In this document: piece by piece, positions 52,503 through 63,738 of the stretch | Numbering within the stretch: position 1 is the first letter of the stretch | Layout of the letters: every line of letters starts with the position of its first letter | Source: an uncultured Isosphaeraceae bacterium | Lineage (GTDB): Bacteria > Planctomycetota > GCA-002687715 | NCBI GenBank assembly: GCA_964507445.1 | Contig: CAZDQF010000005.1 | Location: 38,436 to 102,435, forward strand | Direction of reading: 5' to 3' | DNA: 64,000 nucleotides | The notes under the pieces: generated by a model | Told to the model about the DNA's origin: nothing | The model's database searches: none | Seen by the model: the letters and a program-made list of their open reading frames with translations, nothing else | Position numbers and translations under genes: made by a program

Positions 52503-55133
52503 TCACTCGTGGGGGTAGGTCAGCGAGAGGCGCACCCCAAGGGAACGCACCCGTTCCTCGGGCGCGGCGTAATGACGCGCGGCCGAGGTGCAGAAAGGCG
52601 CGGCCAGAGCGAAGGAGCCGCCCCGATGCACCCGCACGGGGCTCTGACCGGACGCTCGCAGGCCGTCCCGCGGACGGACCGAGCAGGTGTATCCGGCCAT
52701 GCCGTCCCGGCACCACTCCGAGACGTTGCCGATGACGTCGTGGAGCCCGAACCCGTTGGGAGCGTAGGACCCGACCACGGCAAGGTCCGCGCGGCCGTCG
52801 TCCAGCCCTGCCGTGGGGATGGAGGTGAGCCTCCTCCCGGAAAAGGACCCCTCATCCAGGATGTTGGCGAACCCCCGCAACGAAGTCACGCTGCTCCCGG
52901 TCGGGAACACGGCCCGTGAACCGCCTCGGGCCGCATGCTCCCACTGCGCCTCCGTCGGCACCTCGAGACCGAGGGCCCGGGCCACCCTCGACACCTCCTC
53001 CCAGGAGACGTATCCCGCCGGGATGTTCTCGGCCAACTCTCCCGCCTCGGACCCGTCACGCTCGCGCGCGAGGAACCTCCGCCACTGGTTCTCCGTCAAC
53101 TCGTACTTGGAGATGAAGAAGGCGGACAGCCGTACCTGGTGGACCGGTCCCACGTCCACCTCCGCGAACCGGTCGACGTTGTGCTCTTCATCCGCTCCCT
53201 CAGCAGGAGGGGACGCCCCCATGTGAAAGCTCGCCGGAGGCAGGAGCACCAGGATGATGCCTCCGGCCAGGCCCGGGCGCCAACGCCTCTGGCCCTCATC
53301 CCACCTCGGGGCGGCGCCGGACTCCACGTGCCAGAAGTTCCAGAGCCCCGAACGCTCGTCCCTGCCCAGCGGCACCAGACCAGGAACGGGCCTCAGCGAG
53401 ACTTCCGTGAACGCCCCACCACGACTCAGGTCTCTCAGGCACCGATCCCACGCCTCACGAGCGTTCAACAAGGAGCGCGTCCGATAGGTCCTGGATCGCC
53501 TCAGGCGATCCGTGACGGAAGCCATGGCGTCATCCAGTTGCACGTACAGATCGATGAGCTCTTCCAGCTGCTCCTCGAAGAACTGGTCCCTCTCGTCCGC
53601 GTAGGACCAGTGCAGGCGGAGGTCCGTCACCAGAGCCAGGCGCTCCCGCTCCTCGCTCCAGGAAGCACGTCGCTCGTCGCTGACGTCACTTGTCCGGAGC
53701 GACGCCTCCAGCTCTTCCATGCGACGAACCTCGTTCGGATAACCGAGTCGCCGCTCGGCAGAAGAGTAGGGCAACGCACGGATCCTGAGGCGTCTCAAGG
53801 ACCGGGCGTGCACGCCCTCGTTTCTCGCCAGGGACCGAGCGTCTCGCAACCACTCCCGACATGAGTCGACCAACCTCGGACCCACGGGCCAGAGCCCCTG
53901 GTGGCTGGCGAGCAGCCGGCGCAGCTTGACCGTGTCCGACAGCTGCAGCACGTCGTCCAGCGCCTGGGTCAACTCTCGCTCGGCCCGTTGTGCCCGGTCC
54001 GCCTCCTGCTGTTCCTGGCGCCAGAAGCTCCACGACACGGTGGCGGCGATGGTGAGCACCGTGAGAATGAGGGCGATCATCCCCACCGCCCACCGGTGCC
54101 GTGTCAGGGTCTTCCTGAGCAGGTACCACCGGCCGTCTCCTCGCGCCTCCACCGCCACCCCCGCGAGCCAGCGGTCCAGGTCACGGCCGAGGGCCTCCGC
54201 GGATTGAAACCTCCGGTCCGGTTCCTTCTGCAACGCACACATGATGATGGCGTCCAGATCCCGGCCTACTTGTGGATTGATCCGGACGACCGGCTCCGGG
54301 TCGGTGTGGGTGATGGCCCTCACCAGCCCTGCGATCGACGCCGCGCCCTGCCACGCGCGCTGGCCCGCGAACGACTCGTACAACAACAAGCCGAGAGCGT
54401 GCACGTCGGTCCGCACGTCCACGAGGGAAGGGTCGTCAGCCAGCTGCTCGGGGGACGCGTAGGGCAGGGTCCCGGCGAACTCTCCGGTCTGGGTCAGCTC
54501 CCGGGAGCGGGTGGCGTGGAACGCCGGCTTGGCGACGCCGAAGTCGAGGATGTGTGGATCTCCGGCTCCATCGATGAGGATGTTCGACGGCTTGAGGTCA
54601 CGGTGAATGACACCACGCTGATGGGCGAAGTGGACGGCGCGACAGAGCTTGCGGAACAGCTCCACCCGGCGCCGCAGGGGTGGCTCTTCATCTTCCATCC
54701 AGACGTCCAGGTGGCGGCCGTCGATGAACTCCATGGCGAGGAACCGCGCCCCCGCGACCTGACCGCTGTCGTAGAGCCGGACGATGTTGGGGTGCTCGAG
54801 CATGCGGATGATCTCGAACTCCAGCTCCATCCGCTTGACCGCCTGGGGAGAAGCGCCCTGCTCCGTGATGATCTTGAGCGCCACGGGGCGCTGGGTGCTC
54901 TGCTGCAGGGCCTTGACCACCAGTCCCTGGCCACCCCGGCGGATCACCTCCTGGAAGACGTAGCCCTCCGGCATGGGAGGCAGTGGCTGCGCCACGGAGT
55001 CCGTGTCCTCGACCGGGAGGTCGTGGCGGTGGTGCTGCAACAGGCCCACCAGGGAGTCGTGGACGTTCATCCCCGCCAGGAACTCCAACTCCCGGTCATC
55101 ACTCTGTTCGCGGCGACGCCACGGCACCCTCAC
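52503..55133 (-). CDS. Ser/Thr protein kinase fused to C-terminal formylglycine-generating-enzyme (FGE/SUMF1) domain
   Basis: Kinase motifs VALKII, HRDLKPSNILID, DFGVAKP and SPEQ. A membrane helix GMIALILTVLTIAATVSW and a long helical region follow. The C-terminal 300 aa carries FGE-sulfatase motifs (YVSWEE...EAQWEHAARGG...GNVSEWCRD...RVHRGGSF). GTG 55133 lies 1 nt after the sigma-factor stop; alternative ATG 55070. Confidence 0.8.
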   Translation of the reverse strand: MRVPWRRREQSDDRELEFLAGMNVHDSLVGLLQHHRHDLPVEDTDSVAQPLPPMPEGYVFQEVIRRGGQGLVVKALQQSTQRPVALKIITEQGASPQAVKRMELEFEIIRMLEHPNIVRLYDSGQVAGARFLAMEFIDGRHLDVWMEDEEPPLRRRVELFRKLCRAVHFAHQRGVIHRDLKPSNILIDGAGDPHILDFGVAKPAFHATRSRELTQTGEFAGTLPYASPEQLADDPSLVDVRTDVHALGLLLYESFAGQRAWQGAASIAGLVRAITHTDPEPVVRINPQVGRDLDAIIMCALQKEPDRRFQSAEALGRDLDRWLAGVAVEARGDGRWYLLRKTLTRHRWAVGMIALILTVLTIAATVSWSFWRQEQQEADRAQRAERELTQALDDVLQLSDTVKLRRLLASHQGLWPVGPRLVDSCREWLRDARSLARNEGVHARSLRRLRIRALPYSSAERRLGYPNEVRRMEELEASLRTSDVSDERRASWSEERERLALVTDLRLHWSYADERDQFFEEQLEELIDLYVQLDDAMASVTDRLRRSRTYRTRSLLNAREAWDRCLRDLSRGGAFTEVSLRPVPGLVPLGRDERSGLWNFWHVESGAAPRWDEGQRRWRPGLAGGIILVLLPPASFHMGASPPAEGADEEHNVDRFAEVDVGPVHQVRLSAFFISKYELTENQWRRFLARERDGSEAGELAENIPAGYVSWEEVSRVARALGLEVPTEAQWEHAARGGSRAVFPTGSSVTSLRGFANILDEGSFSGRRLTSIPTAGLDDGRADLAVVGSYAPNGFGLHDVIGNVSEWCRDGMAGYTCSVRPRDGLRASGQSPVRVHRGGSFALAAPFCTSAARHYAAPEERVRSLGVRLSLTYPHE

Positions 55134-57297: not shown

Positions 57298-59733
57298 TCA
57301 ACACCGGACCCGAGCGCTCTTGGGGTCGTAGGCAGGCCGCAAGGAGGCCCGGGCAGACACGGGATGACCGTTCACGACCACGTCGTAACGACCGGCCACG
57401 AGCCAGTCCTTGGTGACCCGCTCCGGACCCCGGACGTAGCCGAGCCCCACGGCGCCTCCCAACGTGTGACCGTAGGCGCCCGACGTCGTGTGACCCACCA
57501 CCGCTCCGTCGCGGAGGATCGGTTCCTGACCCCACAAGACCGGCTCCGGGTCTTCCAGGACGAGCTGGACGAGCCGACGGGTGACCCCGGACTCCCGCTG
57601 CCGCACCACCACCTCCCGGCCCAGGAAGTCCTTGGACAGGTCACAGAACATGGAGAGCCCGGCCTGGACAGGGGTATCGTCGGGGCTGAGCTCCGCGCCC
57701 CACGCCCGGTAGGCCTTCTCGAGCCTGCAGGCGTTCACCGCGTAGTGACCCGCGTCCCGGAGCCCCAGGTCTTCCCCTGCCTCATGCAGCGCCGTGTGCA
57801 CGCGCACCATGTCCGACGGGTCCACATGGACCTCGTAGCCCAGCTCCCCCACGTAGGTGATGCGCAGCGCGCTCACCGTGGCCCCGGCCAGCTGGAAGCG
57901 CTGCGCCGTGCCGAAGGGGAAGCTCTCGTTGCCGAGGTCGTGATCCGTCAGCCGGCTCATCAACGCCCTCGTGTGGGGGCCCATGATCCCGATGACGCCC
58001 ACCGCCTGCGTCACGTCCTCCACCTCCACACCCATACCCCGGGCGTTGGCTCGGACCCACGCCAGGTCGTGCCAGCGTTGGCCGCTGGAGGTCACCAGGA
58101 TGAAGCAATCCGGGAGACGCAACACCGTCAGGTCACTCTCGAAGGTCCCCCGCTGGTTGAGCATGGCCGTGTACACCAGCTTGCCGGGGTCCACGTCCAC
58201 GTTGTTGGCGCACAGGCGCTGCAGGAGGTCGCGGCTCTCCGGGCCCGACACCCGGATCTTGCCGAAGGAGGACTGGTCGAACAGAGCCACCCCCTCGCGA
58301 ACAGCCCGGACCTCCTCCGCCACCGCGCCATGCCAGTTCTGACGGCCCCAGGCGTACTCGTTCACAGGGTCCTCGCCAGGTCGAGCGAACCAGTTGGGCC
58401 GCTCCCAGCCCGCCCGCTGACCGAAGCACGCGCCTCGCGCCGCCAGGGAGTCGTGCAACGGTGACTCGAGCAGCCCCCGCCCGGTCTCCATCTCCCGGTT
58501 GGGCCAGGCCATCTGGTAGTGGAGCCCGAGCACCTCGCCGACCCGCGATTGAAGAAAGGACGGGTCGTTGTGCATCGCGCCGAAGCGGGTCGGGTCCACG
58601 CTCCACAGATCCATGGTCGCGGAGCCTTCCGTCATCCACTCAGCGAGCACGCGGCCGGCGCCTCCGGCGGTGGCGATGCCGACGCTGTTGAAGCCGGCGG
58701 CGATCCAGAGACCGTCAACGCCGGGTCCGGGACCCAGGATGAAGCTGTTGTCGGGGGTGAAGCTCTCGGGTCCGTTGATGAAGTCCGGGAACTCCGCGTC
58801 ACGCAGGGCGGGGATGAGCTTGCGGCCAGCGGCCAGGGGGTCGGCGAATCCCGGCCAGTCGGGTTCGAAGAGACCGAAGCTGAAGTCCCCGGGCACCGGG
58901 TCCACATCCCAGGGCTTGCTGCGGTCCTGGAACGCCCCCAGCATCATGCGATCCCCTTCCGGGCGCACGTAGATCTTGAGGTCCGGGTCCCGGAGCATGG
59001 GCAGGTCATCGTGGGTGCCGGCGATGGGCTCGCTCACCACGTAATGGTGCTCCACGGGCCAGAGCGGCACGGTCAATCCGCACCGGGCCGCCAGGTCCCG
59101 TGTCCACATCCCTCCACACAGGGCCACGTGTTCGGCGGAGACATCACCTTGATCGGTTCGCACGCCGACCACCCTGTCACCTTCCCGCAACACCTCCGTG
59201 ACGCGGACACCCTCCTGAAGAACGGCGCCTCGTGAGCGCGCCCCTGCGGCGAGAGACGCCACCAGGTCCTGGGGCACCACGCGGCCGTCGTGAGGCAGCC
59301 ACGCGCCACCGAGCACCTGCGCCGCGTCCATGTGAGGCCAGAGCTCGGCGCAGCGGTCCCGGTCGATGATCTCGGCCTCCACTCCGAAGACCTCGGCCAT
59401 GGCGACGGTGCGGCGCAGCTGCACCATGCGCTCCTCGCTGCGGCCGACGATCAGGCTGCCGGTCTGACGCCACGAGCAGGAGACCCCGGTCTCGGCTTCG
59501 AGCCGGGAGTACAGCTCCACGCTCTCCTTGTTGATCCTGGTCAGGGAATTGGAGGTCCGCAACCGACCCACCATGCCCGCCGCGTGCCAGGTGGAGCCGC
59601 CGGCCAGCTCTCCCTGCTCGAGCAGCAGGACCTCGTCGTGTCCGTGACGGACCAGGTGGTAGGCGAGGCTCGTCCCCATGGCACCGCCCCCCACGATCAC
59701 GATCCGGGAAGCTGCGGGGAGCGCCTGGGCCAT
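57298..59733 (-). CDS. FAD-dependent oxidoreductase fused to aminomethyltransferase (GcvT) folate-binding domain; dimethylglycine/sarcosine dehydrogenase family
   Basis: IVIVGGGAMGTSLAYHL FAD motif and a DAO domain of about 420 aa, then a GcvT-like domain (GHTTSGAYGHTLGGAVGLGYV). 811 aa. Confidence 0.75.
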   Translation of the reverse strand: MAQALPAASRIVIVGGGAMGTSLAYHLVRHGHDEVLLLEQGELAGGSTWHAAGMVGRLRTSNSLTRINKESVELYSRLEAETGVSCSWRQTGSLIVGRSEERMVQLRRTVAMAEVFGVEAEIIDRDRCAELWPHMDAAQVLGGAWLPHDGRVVPQDLVASLAAGARSRGAVLQEGVRVTEVLREGDRVVGVRTDQGDVSAEHVALCGGMWTRDLAARCGLTVPLWPVEHHYVVSEPIAGTHDDLPMLRDPDLKIYVRPEGDRMMLGAFQDRSKPWDVDPVPGDFSFGLFEPDWPGFADPLAAGRKLIPALRDAEFPDFINGPESFTPDNSFILGPGPGVDGLWIAAGFNSVGIATAGGAGRVLAEWMTEGSATMDLWSVDPTRFGAMHNDPSFLQSRVGEVLGLHYQMAWPNREMETGRGLLESPLHDSLAARGACFGQRAGWERPNWFARPGEDPVNEYAWGRQNWHGAVAEEVRAVREGVALFDQSSFGKIRVSGPESRDLLQRLCANNVDVDPGKLVYTAMLNQRGTFESDLTVLRLPDCFILVTSSGQRWHDLAWVRANARGMGVEVEDVTQAVGVIGIMGPHTRALMSRLTDHDLGNESFPFGTAQRFQLAGATVSALRITYVGELGYEVHVDPSDMVRVHTALHEAGEDLGLRDAGHYAVNACRLEKAYRAWGAELSPDDTPVQAGLSMFCDLSKDFLGREVVVRQRESGVTRRLVQLVLEDPEPVLWGQEPILRDGAVVGHTTSGAYGHTLGGAVGLGYVRGPERVTKDWLVAGRYDVVVNGHPVSARASLRPAYDPKSARVRC

Positions 59734-60840
59734 TCAACGAATCTCCATGTCTGACAACGTCCTGCCCACGGCGTCCAACAAGGCGCGCACGTCATCCGGA
59801 GAGAGGTGCCCGATGGTCCCGATGCGGAAGCACCGAGCCTGCGTCAGCTTGCCGGGGTAGATCACGAACCCCCGTTCGTTGAGCCGCTCGTAGAACCCCT
59901 CGAACGTGAAACTCGGATCGTCCGGGTAGTGAAAGGCGGTGATGATCGGGCCCTGGACCTGCTCTGATAGGTAGGGGGTGAAGCCCAGCTCCTTCATGCC
60001 GCGGACGAGCAGTCGGTGGTTCTCCGCGTAGCGACGTCCGCGGGCCACGGGCCCTCCCTCCGCCTCCAGCTCCCGCAGGGCTTGCCGGAACGCCAGCAGG
60101 GCGTGGGTGGGAGGGGTGAAGCGGAACTGCCCATTGTCCTCCAGGCCACGCCACTGAGCGAGGAGGTCCAGGCTGACGGTGCGGGCGCGACCCGCGCTGG
60201 CGAGCAGAGCGTCGCGCCGACAGATGACGAAGCAGAACCCCGGCACGCCCTGGATGCACTTGTTGGCGCTGGAGACGAGGTAATCCACGCCCCAGTCGTC
60301 GAGGTCCACCTCCACGGCGCCGAAGGCGCTCATGGAATCGACGATGAAGACCTTGTCGTGTCCGGCCACGAGCCGTCCCATGGAGCTCACCGGGTTCATG
60401 ATCCCGGTGGTGGTCTCGCAATGAACCGTGGCCACCGCCGCGATCCCCGGGTCCTCGGTCAGCGAGCGCTCGAGCGCGCCCAGGTCCGGCGTCTCGTCCT
60501 CCGGGCAACGCAGCTCAAGGGTCTCGACGCCGTGCACCCGGGCGATGGCCGCCATGCGATCCCCGTACGCCCCGTTGATGACCACCAGCAACTTGCCCTG
60601 CGGCGGCAGGACCGAAGACACCACCGCCTCCAGGCCGGAGGTGCCGCTACCTTGCATGGGGATGGCCTCGTATCCAGCCTCCTGGGAGGTGGACGCGAGC
60701 TTGAGGAGGTCACGTCGGATCTCACCCACCGCGTCGATGAACGACCGGTCCCGCGAACCGAGGTCGTGCAACATCGCTTCCTTGACGCCGGGACTGGTGG
60801 TGAGAGGGCCAGGAGTGAAGAGTGGTTTGTCCTGCGACAC
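59734..60840 (-). CDS. phnW: 2-aminoethylphosphonate--pyruvate transaminase
   Basis: LFTPGPLTTSPGVKEAML, SSANKCIQGVPGF, FVIYPGK and CFRIGTIG align closely with Salmonella PhnW. GTG 60840 with a GGAG motif 9 nt upstream. The ORF track over-extends to 61509. Confidence 0.8.
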   Translation of the reverse strand: MSQDKPLFTPGPLTTSPGVKEAMLHDLGSRDRSFIDAVGEIRRDLLKLASTSQEAGYEAIPMQGSGTSGLEAVVSSVLPPQGKLLVVINGAYGDRMAAIARVHGVETLELRCPEDETPDLGALERSLTEDPGIAAVATVHCETTTGIMNPVSSMGRLVAGHDKVFIVDSMSAFGAVEVDLDDWGVDYLVSSANKCIQGVPGFCFVICRRDALLASAGRARTVSLDLLAQWRGLEDNGQFRFTPPTHALLAFRQALRELEAEGGPVARGRRYAENHRLLVRGMKELGFTPYLSEQVQGPIITAFHYPDDPSFTFEGFYERLNERGFVIYPGKLTQARCFRIGTIGHLSPDDVRALLDAVGRTLSDMEIR

Positions 60841-60903: not shown

Positions 60904-61650
60904 ATGCCGAGCGGAATCACCCTGGACCTGTGGGACACCGTCATTCATGACGACTCGGACGAACCGAAGCGCTCGAGACAGGGGCTGCGATGCAAGGCGG
61001 ACGCCCGGATCGACATCGTCGAGCGCGCCGTTGCCACGGCGGACGCGGGGGTCTTGAGAGAGGATGTGGTGCGTGCATCCCAACTGGCAGCGGAGACGTT
61101 TCGTTCCACCTGGCGTGACCAGCACGTCACCCTCGGGGTGCCGGAGCGGATGGGGTTGATCCTGAGCGCCCTGCGAGTCGAGTTGATCCCGGAGGTCCGC
61201 ACGCGCGCCATCACCGAGCTGGAGGAGCTGGAGTTGGACCCGCCCCCCGATCCGGTGCCGGGGGCGGTCGAAGGGGTCGCTACCCTCGCATCCAGGTGGC
61301 CCCTGGCCATCGTCTCCGACACCGTGTTCTCCCCGGCCCGCTGCCTGCGGGAGATCCTCCGGCTCCACGGCCTCCTGGATCACTTCAACGCCCTGGTGTT
61401 CAGCGACGAAGCGGGCTGTTCCAAGCCGGATCGACGAGTGTTCGAACGCGCCGTGAGCGAGCTGGGCGTGGACAGGGAGAAGACGGTCCACGTGGGTGAC
61501 CGTGAACACAACGACGTGAAGGGCGCCCGGCGGGCCGGAATGAAGACCGTGCTGTTCATCGGCACCCGGGACACGGACCTTGCCGGCACCACCGCTGACG
61601 CCGTTTGCAGGAGCTGGGATGAGCTCCCGGATATCATCAGCGCCCTATGA
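60904..61650 (+). CDS. HAD-superfamily hydrolase (subfamily IA-like)
   Basis: N-terminal LDLWDTVIHDD (HAD motif I variant), then SDT..., K..., GDREHNDV motif IV. A PhnX-like phosphonatase role is possible but not demonstrated. Confidence 0.6.
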   Translation: MPSGITLDLWDTVIHDDSDEPKRSRQGLRCKADARIDIVERAVATADAGVLREDVVRASQLAAETFRSTWRDQHVTLGVPERMGLILSALRVELIPEVRTRAITELEELELDPPPDPVPGAVEGVATLASRWPLAIVSDTVFSPARCLREILRLHGLLDHFNALVFSDEAGCSKPDRRVFERAVSELGVDREKTVHVGDREHNDVKGARRAGMKTVLFIGTRDTDLAGTTADAVCRSWDELPDIISAL

Positions 61651-63656
61651 GATTCCTCGTCATCGACGGATACACCAAGGCGGCCCGAGACGAGCTGGAA
61701 GCCGGAGGCGCGTCGACCGCGGCGACCCTCTATGAACGCATGCTCCTGCGCTGGGCCCCGGAGGGATCCTCCGTGGACCTGCTGTTCCCGTCGGATACTG
61801 GCATCGCGGACGACTTCGCGGTGGACCGATACGACGGCATCGCCTGGACCGGATGCAGTCTCTGCGTCAACGACACGGACAAGCCCGAGGTGACCTGTCA
61901 GGTGGACCTGCAGCGCCGAGCATACCTGGCAGGAGTCCCCGGGTTCGGCTCATGCTGGGCGGCCCAGGTCGCGGTCGTGGCGGCGGGAGGAGCGGTGGCT
62001 CCGAACCCCAACGGCCGGGAGATGGGCGTGGCGCGGAAGATCGCGTTGACCGGCGAAGGGCGGGCGCACCCCATGTTCGAAGGCAAGCCCCACGTGTTCG
62101 ACGGCTTCACCAGCCACGACGACGAGGTGACCCGGCTGCCGGAAGGTGCGACCCTCCTCGCGTCCAATCCATGGACCCGCGTCCAGGCGGTGGAGGTGGT
62201 CTACGAAGGGACGCCCTTCTGGGGACTGCAGTACCACCCGGAGTACGACCTCCACGAGATGGCTCGGCTCATGCACACCCGCGCGGACAAGTTGGTGGCC
62301 CTCGGGTTCTTCAAGGACCGGGACGCGGCTCAACGCCACGTCGACGACCTGGAGACCGTACACGCCGACCCGTCGCGAACGGACCTCGCCTGGTCGCTCG
62401 GCATCGACGCGGACCTCCTCGACCCGGAGATCCGACAGGCGGAGACACGGAACTGGATCCGGTCCCTCCTGGTGCTCCTGTTGATGACCGGCCTCGTCGC
62501 CGCGCAGCGGACCAACTACGACGAGTCCAAGGTCCCCGCCTACACGCTCCCCGACCCGCTCGAAGGTGTCGCCACGCCGGCGGAGTGGACGGAGCGCCGG
62601 GCCCACCTGATGAAGCTCTTGGAAGGCCACGTCTACGGGCGCATGCCAAGAGCGCCCGTGCGCACGTTCGTCAAGGAGACCGAGCCCGACCCCAAGGCGC
62701 TCGACGGGCTGGCGACGCGGCGTGAGATCACCATCCGGTTCAAGGACGAGGGGTCCGGTCCGGCCATGACCGTGCTCCTCTACCAGCCGAACAAGCGCGA
62801 GGGGCCGGCCCCGGCGTTCCTGGGCCTGAACTTCTGGGGCAACCACGCGGTCGACGAGGACCCGGGGATCACCATCAACCCCGCCACCCGCGGTCGGGCC
62901 CGCGGCTCCCGGGCCCACCGATGGGCCATCCCCACCATCATCGACCGCGGCTACGCCCTGGCCACCATCTACTACGGTGACATCGACCCGGACCGCTTCG
63001 ACGGCTACAAGGACGGGGTCCACCCCCTCTTCCCCATGAACCAGGGCTCCGCCAGGGAGAAGGACGCGTGGGGCTCCATCTGCGCGTGGGCCTGGGGGCT
63101 CTCCCGCGCCCTGGACTGGATGGTGCAGGATGAGGCCATCGACGGCGGCAAGGTGGCGGTCATGGGGCACTCCAGGCTCGGCAAGACCGCCCTGTGGGCA
63201 GGCGCCTGCGACGAGCGCTTCAAGCTGGTCATCTCCAACAACTCGGGGTGCGGCGGCGCGGCGCTGTCCCGCCGTCGATACGGAGAGACCGTCAAGCGCA
63301 TCAATGACGTCATGCCCCACTGGTTCTGCGACCGGTTCAAGGAGTACAACGGCAACGAGGACGCGCTCCCCGTGGATCAGCACACCCTGATCGCGTGCAT
63401 CGCTCCCAGGGCGTGCCTCGTGAGCAGCGCCGAGGAGGATCGCTGGGCCGATCCTAAGGGCGAGTTCCTCGCCGCCCGCGGCGCGGACCCGGTCTATCGG
63501 TTGCTCGGCACGTCCGGGCTCCCGGTCAGCTCCATGCCGACGCCGGGCAATGCCTCTCTCGGACGATTGGGATACCACATACGACCGGGCAAGCACGACG
63601 TGACCGACGCGGACTGGGACGTCTTCCTCCGCTTCGCCGATCGCTTCCTCCGTTGA
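61647..63656 (+). CDS. class I glutamine amidotransferase-like domain fused via a hydrophobic segment to a CE15-like (glucuronoyl esterase-type) alpha/beta hydrolase
   Basis: The N-terminal 270 aa has GFGSCWAAQ (Cys nucleophile context) and GLQYHPE (His). A hydrophobic stretch IRSLLVLLLMTGLVAAQ spans nt 62457-62510. The C-terminal 385 aa has a GHSRLGK nucleophile motif (compare CE15 GCSRxG) and a downstream His. The 5' end overlaps the HAD gene stop (ATGA). Confidence 0.6.
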   Translation: MRFLVIDGYTKAARDELEAGGASTAATLYERMLLRWAPEGSSVDLLFPSDTGIADDFAVDRYDGIAWTGCSLCVNDTDKPEVTCQVDLQRRAYLAGVPGFGSCWAAQVAVVAAGGAVAPNPNGREMGVARKIALTGEGRAHPMFEGKPHVFDGFTSHDDEVTRLPEGATLLASNPWTRVQAVEVVYEGTPFWGLQYHPEYDLHEMARLMHTRADKLVALGFFKDRDAAQRHVDDLETVHADPSRTDLAWSLGIDADLLDPEIRQAETRNWIRSLLVLLLMTGLVAAQRTNYDESKVPAYTLPDPLEGVATPAEWTERRAHLMKLLEGHVYGRMPRAPVRTFVKETEPDPKALDGLATRREITIRFKDEGSGPAMTVLLYQPNKREGPAPAFLGLNFWGNHAVDEDPGITINPATRGRARGSRAHRWAIPTIIDRGYALATIYYGDIDPDRFDGYKDGVHPLFPMNQGSAREKDAWGSICAWAWGLSRALDWMVQDEAIDGGKVAVMGHSRLGKTALWAGACDERFKLVISNNSGCGGAALSRRRYGETVKRINDVMPHWFCDRFKEYNGNEDALPVDQHTLIACIAPRACLVSSAEEDRWADPKGEFLAARGADPVYRLLGTSGLPVSSMPTPGNASLGRLGYHIRPGKHDVTDADWDVFLRFADRFLR

Positions 63657-63738
63657 TCGATGCCCCCTCGAGCTCCGGGGATCTTCCCGACACAGGGCCA
63701 CGGGATTAACCTAACGACGCTCCGCTACCAGCCGAGAT

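What the first reader, a model, noticed from the sequence alone, without database searches (positions are those of the whole stretch)
61647..63656. GATase1-like domain joined through a signal-peptide-like hydrophobic segment to a CE15-type esterase
A 669-aa ORF has a class I glutamine-amidotransferase-like N-terminal domain (GSCWAAQ, GLQYHPE), then IRSLLVLLLMTGLVAAQ (nt 62457-62510), then an alpha/beta hydrolase with GHSRLGK resembling the CE15 glucuronoyl-esterase GCSRxG nucleophile motif. The hydrophobic stretch looks like a secretion signal in the middle of a protein. Two readings fit. It may be a real fusion with a transmembrane anchor, cytoplasmic GATase and extracytoplasmic esterase. Or it may be an internal initiation site producing a separately secreted esterase: GTG 62472, TTG 62481 and ATG 62484 are all in frame. 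Either way the context, with a HAD hydrolase upstream (coupled by ATGA) and an aldehyde dehydrogenase downstream, is not a typical glucuronoyl-esterase setting.
Basis: partly seen in the sequence, partly recalled or inferred. Interest (0 to 1): 0.6.

Follow-up and report, generated by a model that had tools for sequence, protein, structure and literature searches.

The report
Conserved amidase–esterase fusion across a membrane
A marine planctomycete gene has permanently joined a cytoplasmic glutamine-amidotransferase-like hydrolase to a normally secreted CE15 esterase, keeping the core of the esterase's export signal as the linker, so one protein probably has an enzyme on each side of the cell membrane; it is real and conserved but confined to a narrow lineage.

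Summary
The 669-aa ORF (61647-63656, +) is real. It is not an assembly artefact: the identical protein is encoded on at least 24 independently assembled metagenome contigs, and full-length fusions exist at 73-75% and 60% identity in marine Planctomycetota MAGs. Residues 1-274 are a class-I GATase-like hydrolase with an intact Cys-His-Glu triad. Its best structural match is a gamma-glutamyl peptidase. Residues 289-669 are a CE15 esterase with about 50% identity to OtCE15A and MZ0003, carrying S509/H650/D598. Stand-alone GATases end at "NWIxSL*". A relative (L010) has the two genes separate, 11 nt apart, and there CE15 has its own signal peptide. So the hydrophobic stretch is the h- and c-region of the CE15 signal peptide; the stop codon, spacer, start codon and n-region were lost. 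The segment stays hydrophobic, non-amphipathic and ends in a (-3,-1) cleavage motif in all fusions. This favours a cytoplasmic GATase and an exported, possibly cleaved, CE15. Internal initiation lacks support: no start codon is conserved in position. The fusion sits in a conserved cluster with PhnW, and it extends a HAD-GATase module that is widespread and linked to aminoethylphosphonate genes. It is a new domain architecture of moderate interest. Topology and substrate remain untested.

The parts
61647..63656 (+). Fusion gene, 669 aa: GATase-like domain, signal-peptide-derived hydrophobic segment, CE15 esterase
   Evidence: identical protein on at least 24 contigs; full-length homologues P0002-P0005
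61647..62468 (+). Class-I glutamine-amidotransferase-like hydrolase domain (res 1-274). Triad C103 (nt 61953-61955), H197 (62235-62237), E199 (62241-62243). The native C-terminus is '...RNWIRSL'
   Evidence: Pfam PF00117/PF07722. Stand-alone homologues of 279-291 aa end at NWIxSL[E/G/R]*. Triad columns are invariant. Foldseek best N-domain match is GGP1
62463..62510 (+). Hydrophobic segment SLLVLLLMTGLVAAQ (res 273-288): h- and c-region of the former CE15 signal peptide, with a putative signal-peptidase site V-A-A|Q
   Evidence: Aligns with the native signal peptide of OtCE15A and of stand-alone CE15s. 14 uncharged residues, mean KD 2.5. <H> 0.76, muH 0.07. Part of one helix 265-288 in AF2, with pLDDT 58-67 over res 281-300
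62511..63653 (+). CE15 glucuronoyl-esterase-type domain (res 289-669). S509 (nt 63171-63173) in GHSRLGK, D598 (63438-63440), H650 (63594-63596). N532 sits at the canonical Glu position. R510, K513 and E547 are substrate-binding residues
   Evidence: PDB hits E 1e-121. Residue mapping onto MZ0003 Ser243/Asp332/His384/Cys266. Motifs intact in 7 fusion genes. Foldseek TM 0.85-0.92
60904..61650 (+). HAD-IA hydrolase, translationally coupled (ATGA) to the fusion gene; conserved partner of the GATase family
   Evidence: Pfam/NCBIfam. Adjacent to the GATase in 73/80 species-representative loci
59734..60840 (-). PhnW, 2-aminoethylphosphonate--pyruvate transaminase, divergently transcribed
   Evidence: NF010006 480 bits (cutoff 296); TIGR02326 457.7 bits (cutoff 400.8). 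Conserved next to all fusion loci
57298..59733 (-). 811-aa FAD oxidoreductase with folate-binding GcvT domain (dimethylglycine-dehydrogenase-like)
   Evidence: conserved in L006, L009, L011
63739..64000 (+). Start of the aldehyde dehydrogenase gene (runs off the window; 453-455 aa in L001-L005)

Best explanation
This is a genuine, selectively maintained gene fusion in a marine Planctomycetota lineage. An upstream cytoplasmic class-I GATase-like amidohydrolase gene and a downstream, separately translated and Sec-exported CE15 esterase gene were merged. The merger removed the GATase stop codon, a short spacer carrying the ribosome-binding site, the CE15 start codon and the charged n-region of its signal peptide (shown by comparison with the unfused pair in L010). 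What remains between the domains is the hydrophobic h-region and the c-region of that signal peptide. Inferred mechanism: the segment now acts as an internal, N-in/C-out export signal. The GATase domain stays in the cytoplasm and the CE15 domain is threaded through SecYEG into the periplasm. Because the core is short and a (-3,-1) Ala site before a conserved Gln is retained, signal peptidase I may cut there. That would release the CE15 and leave the GATase tethered to the membrane by a C-terminal hydrophobic tail. Both active sites are intact, so both halves are expected to be active hydrolases. The gene belongs to a conserved cluster (PhnW, HAD, ALDH, SDR, Na+/solute symporter), so the two activities probably serve one nutrient-scavenging pathway rather than lignocellulose breakdown. 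The substrate is unknown.
For: The fusion is real. The identical protein is on at least 24 contigs from different assemblies. Full-length fusions exist at 99, 73-75 and 60% identity, including GTDB MAGs DT_84 and CPC9 and GCA_002687715.1. Origin of the segment: stand-alone GATases end at NWIxSL*. L010 has GATase, then stop, then an 11-nt AGGAG spacer, then GTG-MHRCLVLVVVLSAAAWSQP-CE15. OtCE15A's own signal peptide aligns to res 268-288. Maintained export features: in 5 distinct fusions the segment has only 38-56% identity against 60-79% in the flanking domains, yet it has no charged residue, <H> 0.66-0.77, muH no more than 0.14, and ends in V-A-A|Q, A-L-A|Q, G-N-A|Q or L-G-A|Q. Fusions of CE15 to other cytoplasmic-type domains (GntR-UTRA, sulfotransferase) carry no such segment. 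Stand-alone CE15s with signal peptides (P0006, P0007) nest among the fused CE15 domains in the tree, which suggests the signal stayed usable. Both catalytic sets are intact in all 7 fusion genes. AF2 gives two confident domains, one helix over 265-288, low confidence over 281-300 and pTM 0.64, so there is no confident interdomain packing. Synteny is conserved. Established knowledge: bitopic proteins with large N-terminal cytoplasmic domains, such as PknB-type kinases, anti-sigma factors and KdpD (PMC2440551), insert normally.
Against: No topology predictor (SignalP, DeepTMHMM) or experiment was available. The hydrophobic core is short at 14 residues. The 19-residue Kyte-Doolittle mean is 1.42, which is below the usual 1.6 cutoff and no better than a buried GATase segment. 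A simple Hessa-scale sum is +5 kcal/mol. Stable membrane insertion is therefore not assured. The window sequence has Arg at +2 after the putative cleavage site, which is unfavourable for Sec export; the other fusions lack it. Export of a domain placed behind a 270-aa folded domain by a moderately hydrophobic signal is unproven. AF2 models the segment as a continuation of the GATase C-terminal helix. The coordinates could not be inspected for packing.
Confidence: 0.6

Rival explanations
1. The fusion protein is entirely cytoplasmic. The hydrophobic stretch is an evolutionary relic that now serves only as a helical linker or a peripheral membrane tether, and the CE15 domain works inside the cell on an imported ester.
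For: The hydrophobic core is short and the TM scores are marginal. AF2 draws it as a continuation of the GATase terminal helix. Other CE15 fusions to cytoplasmic-type domains exist (P0248 GntR-UTRA, P0316 sulfotransferase), so cytoplasmic CE15s are plausible. A Na+/solute symporter is conserved in the cluster, so substrate import is plausible.
Against: Those other cytoplasmic fusions lost the hydrophobic segment, whereas this lineage kept it. It remains charge-free and non-amphipathic and retains a (-3,-1) cleavage motif despite 38-56% sequence identity. A solvent-exposed run of 14 Leu/Val residues would be costly in a soluble protein.
Confidence: 0.25
2. Internal translation initiation near the junction produces a separate, secreted CE15, so the read-through fusion is a minor by-product.
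For: In-frame GTG 62472, TTG 62481 and ATG 62484 exist in the window. L006 has an ATG 4 codons before NW that would give a complete signal peptide, with a GGAG upstream. Shine-Dalgarno use appears weak at other gene starts in this locus, so the absence of such a motif is not decisive.
Against: Candidate starts are not conserved in position. The window's starts lie inside the h-region and would give an 8-12-residue signal with no charged n-region. L007, L008, L014 and L015 have no start codon from -6 to +20 around NW, only a Val GTG at -7. No Shine-Dalgarno-like motif is present in 6 of 7 genes. Ribosomes translating the GATase must in any case read through into CE15, because no stop codon exists in any homologue.
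Confidence: 0.1
3. The fusion is an artefact (assembly or sequencing indel) or a recent pseudogene-type read-through without function.
For: Adjacent, separate GATase and CE15 genes exist in L010, so a single indel could in principle merge them.
Against: The identical protein occurs in at least 24 contigs from independent ENA and JGI assemblies. The fusion is conserved with the same junction at 60-75% identity. All catalytic residues are retained in both halves.
Confidence: 0.02

Closest known systems
Bacterial CE15 glucuronoyl esterases of the OtCE15A / MZ0003 / SuCE15C clade (PDB 6syr, 6ehn, 6gry)
   Same: About 50% identity over the whole catalytic domain (E 1e-119 to 1e-121). Same fold (TM 0.85-0.92). 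GHSRLGK nucleophile elbow. Ser-His plus the non-canonical Asp (MZ0003 Asp332 = D598). The uronate-binding Arg/Lys/Glu residues are kept.
   Different: Those enzymes are stand-alone secreted proteins with an N-terminal signal peptide. Here the signal core is internal, behind a 274-aa cytoplasmic-type enzyme. The genomic context is not a polysaccharide-utilisation or lignocellulose locus.
Stand-alone 'type 1 glutamine amidotransferase' family of 279-291 aa (motifs FGSCWAAQ, FWGLQYHPE), usually annotated as GMP synthase (glutamine-hydrolysing)
   Same: 59-74% identity over res 1-274. Same triad. Same upstream HAD partner with overlapping ATGA. Same PhnW / DMGDH-like / ALDH / SDR neighbourhood.
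   Different: The family members stop at NWIxSL* or NWVxxLVLPxMxx*. Only this Planctomycetota clade continues into CE15. The family has no curated NCBIfam equivalog: the best hit is 93 bits against a cutoff of 205.
Gamma-glutamyl peptidase GGP1 (Arabidopsis, PDB 9k7i-l) and Peptidase C26 / PuuD-type gamma-glutamyl hydrolases
   Same: GGP1 is the best structural match of the N-domain (TM 0.72-0.80, E 1e-14). Pfam Peptidase_C26 hits at E 1e-5 to 1e-6. Like these, it is a stand-alone GATase fold with no synthase partner.
   Different: Only about 20% identity. Substrate unknown. No activity data.
Multicatalytic CE15 enzymes (CkXyn10C-GE15A, BeCE15A-Rex8A; PMC8280721, PMC8417218)
   Same: CE15 is fused to a second catalytic domain.
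   Different: In those enzymes both modules are extracellular carbohydrate-active domains behind one N-terminal signal peptide. Here the partner is a cytoplasmic-type amidohydrolase and the signal lies between the domains.
Bitopic type-II membrane proteins with a large cytoplasmic N-terminal enzyme or regulator domain (PknB-type kinases, RseA/RsiW anti-sigma factors)
   Same: The proposed N-in/C-out topology, with one hydrophobic span between a cytoplasmic and an extracytoplasmic domain.
   Different: Those have 18-23-residue anchors that are not cleaved by signal peptidase. Here the span is 11-17 residues and retains a signal-peptidase motif.

Membership tests
CE15 carbohydrate esterase (glucuronoyl esterase) | Sequence or profile membership above the curated threshold | tested here: met
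   PF22244 113.6 bits against cutoff 27; E 6e-121 to MZ0003 and 4e-119 to OtCE15A
CE15 carbohydrate esterase (glucuronoyl esterase) | Nucleophile Ser in G-[C/H]-S-R-x-G, with the oxyanion/uronate-binding Arg | tested here: met
   GHSRLGK, S509/R510, invariant in the alignment
CE15 carbohydrate esterase (glucuronoyl esterase) | Catalytic His and acidic residue (canonical Glu, or the alternative Asp as in MZ0003) | tested here: met
   H650. The canonical position is N532, but the alternative D598 (= MZ0003 Asp332) is present and invariant
CE15 carbohydrate esterase (glucuronoyl esterase) | alpha/beta-hydrolase fold with the bacterial-clade inserts | tested here: met
   Foldseek TM 0.85-0.92 to OtCE15A, PvCE15 and MZ0003
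CE15 carbohydrate esterase (glucuronoyl esterase) | Hydrolysis of glucuronoyl esters | not testable with these tools
   Needs an enzyme assay (benzyl or methyl glucuronate esters)
Class I glutamine amidotransferase fold (GATase1) | Pfam membership above threshold and the matching fold | tested here: met
   PF00117 51.7-54.2 bits against cutoff 22.8; Foldseek hits to GGP1 and DnfC
Class I glutamine amidotransferase fold (GATase1) | Cys-His-Glu catalytic triad | tested here: met
   C103, H197 and E199 are invariant in 13 family members and in all fusions
Class I glutamine amidotransferase fold (GATase1) | A partner synthase domain or subunit that receives ammonia (a true amidotransferase) | tested here: not met
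   No synthase domain in the protein and none conserved in 80 neighbourhoods. It is therefore better described as a GATase-like amidohydrolase. All NCBIfam equivalogs score below cutoff
Sec-type cleavable signal peptide | h-region of 7-15 hydrophobic residues followed by a c-region obeying the (-3,-1) rule | tested here: met
   SLLVLLLMTGLVAA then V-A-A|Q. The equivalent is present in all five fusions
Sec-type cleavable signal peptide | Location at the N-terminus of the translated protein, with a short charged n-region after the initiator Met | tested here: not met
   The segment starts at residue 273. No conserved internal start codon exists. It is therefore signal-peptide-derived, not a canonical signal peptide
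Signal-anchor (uncleaved transmembrane helix) | Hydrophobic span of about 18-23 residues that passes TM thresholds | tested here: inconclusive
   The uncharged run is 11-17 residues. The 19-residue KD mean is 1.42-1.89 across homologues. The Hessa sum is +2.4 to +6.5. The AF2 helix is 24 residues if NWIR is included

The most novel reading that the evidence does not exclude
The fusion works like a bacterial 'polyprotein across the membrane'. One translation product is split by signal peptidase into a membrane-tethered cytoplasmic gamma-glutamyl-type amidase and a free periplasmic CE15 esterase. The two act in sequence, outside and then inside the cell, on an ester- and amide-linked marine conjugate connected to 2-aminoethylphosphonate metabolism. 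This would give CE15 a physiological role unrelated to lignin-carbohydrate complexes. It would also mark the widespread HAD-GATase module as an undescribed accessory step of phosphonate catabolism.
Probability: 0.15. Interest if true: 0.7.

Novelty: new variant of a known kind. Interest (0 to 1): 0.42.

Why it matters
Both domains belong to well-known families, so nothing here is categorically new. Three points give it value. First, the architecture is unusual: a cytoplasmic-type enzyme, then a retained signal-peptide core, then a secreted enzyme. It is conserved across species, and an unfused intermediate survives. This makes it a clean natural example of how fusing neighbouring genes can turn an N-terminal signal peptide into an internal export or anchor element. 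Second, the fusion functionally ties a CE15 esterase to a GATase-like amidase inside a conserved cluster with PhnW, in open-ocean planctomycetes. This argues that at least some bacterial CE15s act on something other than lignin-carbohydrate esters. Third, the partner HAD-GATase module is present in 481 species-representative genomes. It frequently sits beside the PhnW, PhnY and PhnA genes, yet it is absent from the phosphonate-catabolism papers I could read, so it is a candidate new accessory step.

Tried and rejected
- Assembly error: rejected (at least 24 contigs; homologous fusions).
- Wrong fold for either domain: rejected.
- Internal start site: positional conservation and Shine-Dalgarno-like motifs were examined in 7 genes and none was consistent.
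- Tat signal or lipoprotein signal: no twin-arginine motif and no lipobox Cys in the junction sequences (read directly).
- Amphipathic surface helix: rejected by a hydrophobic moment of 0.04-0.14.
- Window ALDH as PhnY: not supported. Its best NCBIfam hits are SSADH, ABALDH and BADH types far below cutoff. The true PhnY-like ALDH of L043 is only about 30% identical.
- Single versus multiple fusion events: the GATase NJ tree and the CE15 NJ tree with 100 bootstraps were built but do not resolve this. L010 (unfused) groups with L006 (fused) in only 55/100 replicates, and stand-alone P0006 and P0007 nest with the window group.
- AF2 coordinates, to measure exposure of the helix: not available in the sandbox.
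- First CE15 tree attempt: timed out.
- Literature searches for a named GATase or HAD accessory gene in phosphonate clusters: nothing found.
- Literature search for bacterial internal signal peptides created by gene fusion: only general precedents such as KdpD.
Full report
OBSERVATION. The window contains an uninterrupted 669-codon ORF at 61647-63656 on the + strand. Its ATG overlaps the stop codon of the upstream 248-aa HAD hydrolase gene as ATGA. Pfam places a class-I GATase domain at residues 80-205 (PF00117, E 1e-13, above the gathering score, with a weaker Peptidase_C26 hit). It places a CE15 'GCE_fung' domain at 473-621 (E 1.6e-32). Against PDB sequences, residues 290-669 align end to end with the bacterial CE15 enzymes MZ0003 (E 6e-121) and OtCE15A (E 4e-119). 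Residues 93-201 align with GMP-synthase GATase subunits (E 6e-10). An AlphaFold2 model built on a 53-sequence alignment has mean pLDDT 89. Foldseek superposes its C-terminal half on OtCE15A (TM 0.87, E 7e-39). The best match for its N-terminal half is Arabidopsis gamma-glutamyl peptidase GGP1 (TM 0.72-0.80).

NOT AN ARTEFACT. The exact 669-aa protein is indexed in 31 blocks of the assembly collection. It was read on 24 contigs, up to 211 kb long, from independent ENA and JGI metagenome assemblies, all with the same neighbours. A search of 5.8 billion proteins found full-length fusions at 99%, 74%, 75%, 73% and 60% identity. The last is from the NCBI MAG 'Planctomycetes bacterium' GCA_002687715.1. 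Two further fusion genes lie in GTDB species representatives, the Planctomycetota MAGs DT_84 and CPC9. An exhaustive HMMER scan of 1.84 billion 50%-identity representatives found only one representative that matches both halves. The architecture is therefore real but confined to one narrow lineage.

WHAT THE HYDROPHOBIC SEGMENT IS. There are thousands of stand-alone relatives of the N-terminal domain, 279-291 aa long and 59-74% identical over residues 1-270. They end at '...E-V-[KR]-N-W-I-x-S-L-[E/G/R]-stop', or in more distant members at '...NWVxxLVLPxMxx-stop'. N269 and W270 are invariant. So 'RNWIRSL' is the native C-terminus of the GATase.

Stand-alone CE15 relatives begin with a classical signal peptide that ends just before a conserved 'Q-x-N-Y-D-E-[SA]-K-V-P'. 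This is exactly where the window's hydrophobic stretch ends. HMMER aligns OtCE15A's own signal peptide (residues 2-22) to window residues 268-288.

One short contig (L010) preserves the unfused state. It reads GATase '...NWIQSLR-TGA', then an 11-nt spacer containing AGGAG, then GTG-'MHRCLVLVVVLSAAAWSQP...' for CE15. The fusion therefore arose when the stop codon, the spacer, the start codon and the charged n-region were lost. That loss joined the GATase tail directly to the h-region of the CE15 signal peptide. All seven fusion genes share the same junction, NW[IV][RS]S-L-hydrophobic.

IS THE SEGMENT STILL A TARGETING ELEMENT? No signal-peptide or topology predictor was available, so this rests on sequence properties and comparison.

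Evidence for:
- Across five distinct fusions the segment is only 38-56% identical, against 60-79% in the flanking domains. Even so, it never acquires a charged residue.
- Its mean Eisenberg hydrophobicity is 0.66-0.77 with a hydrophobic moment of 0.14 or less. It is uniformly hydrophobic, not an amphipathic surface helix, and is indistinguishable from the L010 signal peptide.
- All five end in a sequence that satisfies the (-3,-1) rule immediately before the conserved Gln: VAA|Q, ALA|Q, GNA|Q or LGA|Q.
- Two other CE15 fusions to cytoplasmic-type domains (GntR-UTRA-CE15 and sulfotransferase-CE15) have no hydrophobic segment at their junction. Relic signals can evidently be lost when they are not needed.
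- In a CE15-domain tree, stand-alone CE15s that carry signal peptides (P0006, P0007; unrelated contexts) group with the window-group fusion domains in 98/100 bootstraps. The fused and free states have therefore interconverted while the signal remained serviceable.

Evidence against:
- The uncharged core is only 14 residues (11-17 in homologues).
- The best 19-residue Kyte-Doolittle mean is 1.42, no higher than a buried GATase segment.
- A simple Hessa-scale sum is about +5 kcal/mol. The scale values were recalled from the 2005 paper, so this number is rough.
- AF2 models residues 265-288 as one 24-residue helix continuous with the GATase terminal helix. pLDDT falls to 58-67 over 281-300 and pTM is 0.64. 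This is compatible with a protruding membrane helix plus a flexible linker, but it does not prove it.

The segment therefore looks like a signal-peptide core rather than a long anchor. That is why cleavage by signal peptidase I is a serious possibility.

INTERNAL INITIATION. The window's in-frame GTG 62472, TTG 62481 and ATG 62484 all lie inside the h-region. Using them would give a signal with no n-region and only 8-12 residues. In L007, L008, L014 and L015 there is no ATG, GTG or TTG from 6 codons before to 20 codons after the NW motif; the only candidate is a valine GTG at -7. L009 and L006 have candidates at other positions. Only L006 has a GGAG upstream. The lack of positional conservation, together with the universal absence of a stop codon, makes the fusion polypeptide the conserved product. 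Internal starts cannot be formally excluded, because Shine-Dalgarno motifs are weak at other genes in this locus.

CATALYTIC COMPETENCE. The GATase triad C103/H197/E199 is invariant. For CE15, the MZ0003 paper (PMC5722869) defines Ser243, His384 and the non-canonical Asp332, with Cys266 at the position of the fungal Glu. Through the alignment these map to S509, H650, D598 and N532. The substrate-contacting Arg244, Lys247 and Glu281 map to R510, K513 and E547. All are conserved in the seven fusion genes. The GATase domain has no synthase partner in the protein or in 80 neighbourhoods, and its best structural match is a gamma-glutamyl peptidase. It is therefore better regarded as a Cys-amidohydrolase than as an ammonia-donating amidotransferase.

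CONTEXT. The gene order is conserved around all fusion genes, including the 60%-identity MAG: PhnW(-), [DMGDH-like(-)], HAD(+), GATase-CE15(+), ALDH(+), SDR(-), Na+/solute symporter(+), NTP_transf_3(+). The aminotransferase is a bona fide 2-aminoethylphosphonate-pyruvate transaminase (NF010006 480 bits against cutoff 296). L007, L014 and L015 add a true phosphonoacetaldehyde hydrolase PhnX.

The GATase family itself occurs in 481 GTDB species representatives across Planctomycetota, Verrucomicrobiota, and Alpha- and Gammaproteobacteria. In the best 80 loci:
- HAD is directly adjacent in 73.
- PhnW is present in 21, and adjacent in 15.
- A DMGDH-like gene is present in 13.
- CE15 is present in only 2, both fused.

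In a Verrucomicrobiae MAG the order is PhnA (above cutoff), a PhnY-like ALDH (just below cutoff), PhnW, then the GATase. A close relative of the window's cluster lacks CE15 altogether. It carries a PEP-mutase/NTP-transferase fusion and a TPP enzyme nearby.

CE15 is therefore a lineage-specific addition to an older HAD-GATase module that is linked to aminoethylphosphonate metabolism. I found no mention of this module in the phosphonate-catabolism papers available. What the CE15 esterase hydrolyses in this setting is unknown. The retained uronate-binding residues suggest a uronic-acid ester, but that is inference.

HISTORY. In an NJ tree of the GATase domain, all CE15-associated GATases form one clade within the family. 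These are fused (window, L006-L009, L014, L015), adjacent (L010) and secondarily CE15-less (L011). In the CE15 tree the same loci, plus the stand-alone P0006 and P0007, form one clade of 8 out of 47 leaves. The identical junction argues for a single fusion followed by fission or escape. Two independent fusions from an adjacent-gene ancestor are not excluded, because the trees are too weak to decide.

VERDICT. The finding is real, and the 'true fusion' reading is right. The most likely mechanism is an internal, signal-peptide-derived export element that places the GATase-like amidase in the cytoplasm and the CE15 esterase in the periplasm, possibly with cleavage. My confidence is about 0.6 for the topology and above 0.95 for the fusion itself. 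It is a new domain architecture of two known families (new variant of a known kind). It is taxonomically narrow and of moderate interest. The more general lead is the uncharacterised HAD-GATase module next to phosphonate genes.

Noticed in passing
window 60904-62468; loci L014-L093: The HAD hydrolase and the GATase-like gene form a two-gene module that is conserved across phyla. HAD is directly adjacent in 73/80 species-representative loci, often with an overlapping ATGA. The family is present in 481 GTDB species. The module frequently sits next to PhnW (21/80). In Verrucomicrobiae it is the last gene of a PhnA, PhnY-like, PhnW, GATase run (L043 6177-10849). The phosphonate-catabolism papers I read do not mention it.
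   Followed up: partly
window 57298-59733 (-) and 59734-60840 (-): An 811-aa FAD oxidoreductase with a folate-binding GcvT domain (dimethylglycine-dehydrogenase-like) lies directly downstream of a bona fide PhnW. This pairing suggests folate-dependent demethylation of N-methylated aminoethylphosphonates. That would differ from the known PbfC/PbfD oxidases, which release methylamine. This is inference only.
   Followed up: no
L012 6709-9121 (and L011): The closest CE15-less version of the cluster has a DUF5690 gene on the opposite strand where CE15 would be. Downstream it has a PEP_mutase-NTP_transf_3 fusion protein followed by a TPP enzyme (phosphonopyruvate-decarboxylase-like). Phosphonate biosynthesis genes therefore lie beside the same HAD-GATase-ALDH-SDR-SSF set.
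   Followed up: no
proteins P0248, P0316, P0323, P0274, P0249, P0285, P0375: Other N-terminal fusions of CE15 exist: GntR-UTRA-CE15, sulfotransferase-CE15, DUF4886-CE15 (recurrent), GDSL-lipase-CE15 and GH20-CE15. The GntR and sulfotransferase fusions have no hydrophobic junction and may represent cytoplasmic CE15s or accidental read-throughs.
   Followed up: partly
L006 7896-9986 (GCA_002687715.1, NZBC01000058.1): The deposited NCBI protein (661 aa, locus CMJ83_05180) starts about 35 codons too far downstream. The ORF extends to 696 aa and then begins MTRPLHLLVIDGY like its relatives. In this MAG a 538-aa FG-GAP protein is inserted between the HAD gene and the fusion gene.
   Followed up: partly
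window 61950-63701 (-): A 583-aa ORF runs antisense across almost the whole fusion gene. It is very probably a shadow ORF of the kind common in high-GC DNA. No homology check was made.
   Followed up: no
L001 1-1487 (= window about 53647-55133, -): An 876-aa protein combines a Ser/Thr kinase domain with an FGE-sulfatase domain, followed by an ECF-type sigma factor and a GT4 glycosyltransferase upstream of the cluster. This is consistent with a planctomycete origin of the window.
   Followed up: no
L094 157-1383; L095 637-1953: The stand-alone CE15 genes P0006 (70% identical) and P0007 (65%) are as close to the window's CE15 domain as the other fusions are. They carry normal N-terminal signal peptides and have no GATase upstream. 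This implies fission or escape from the fusion, or a second fusion event.
   Followed up: partly
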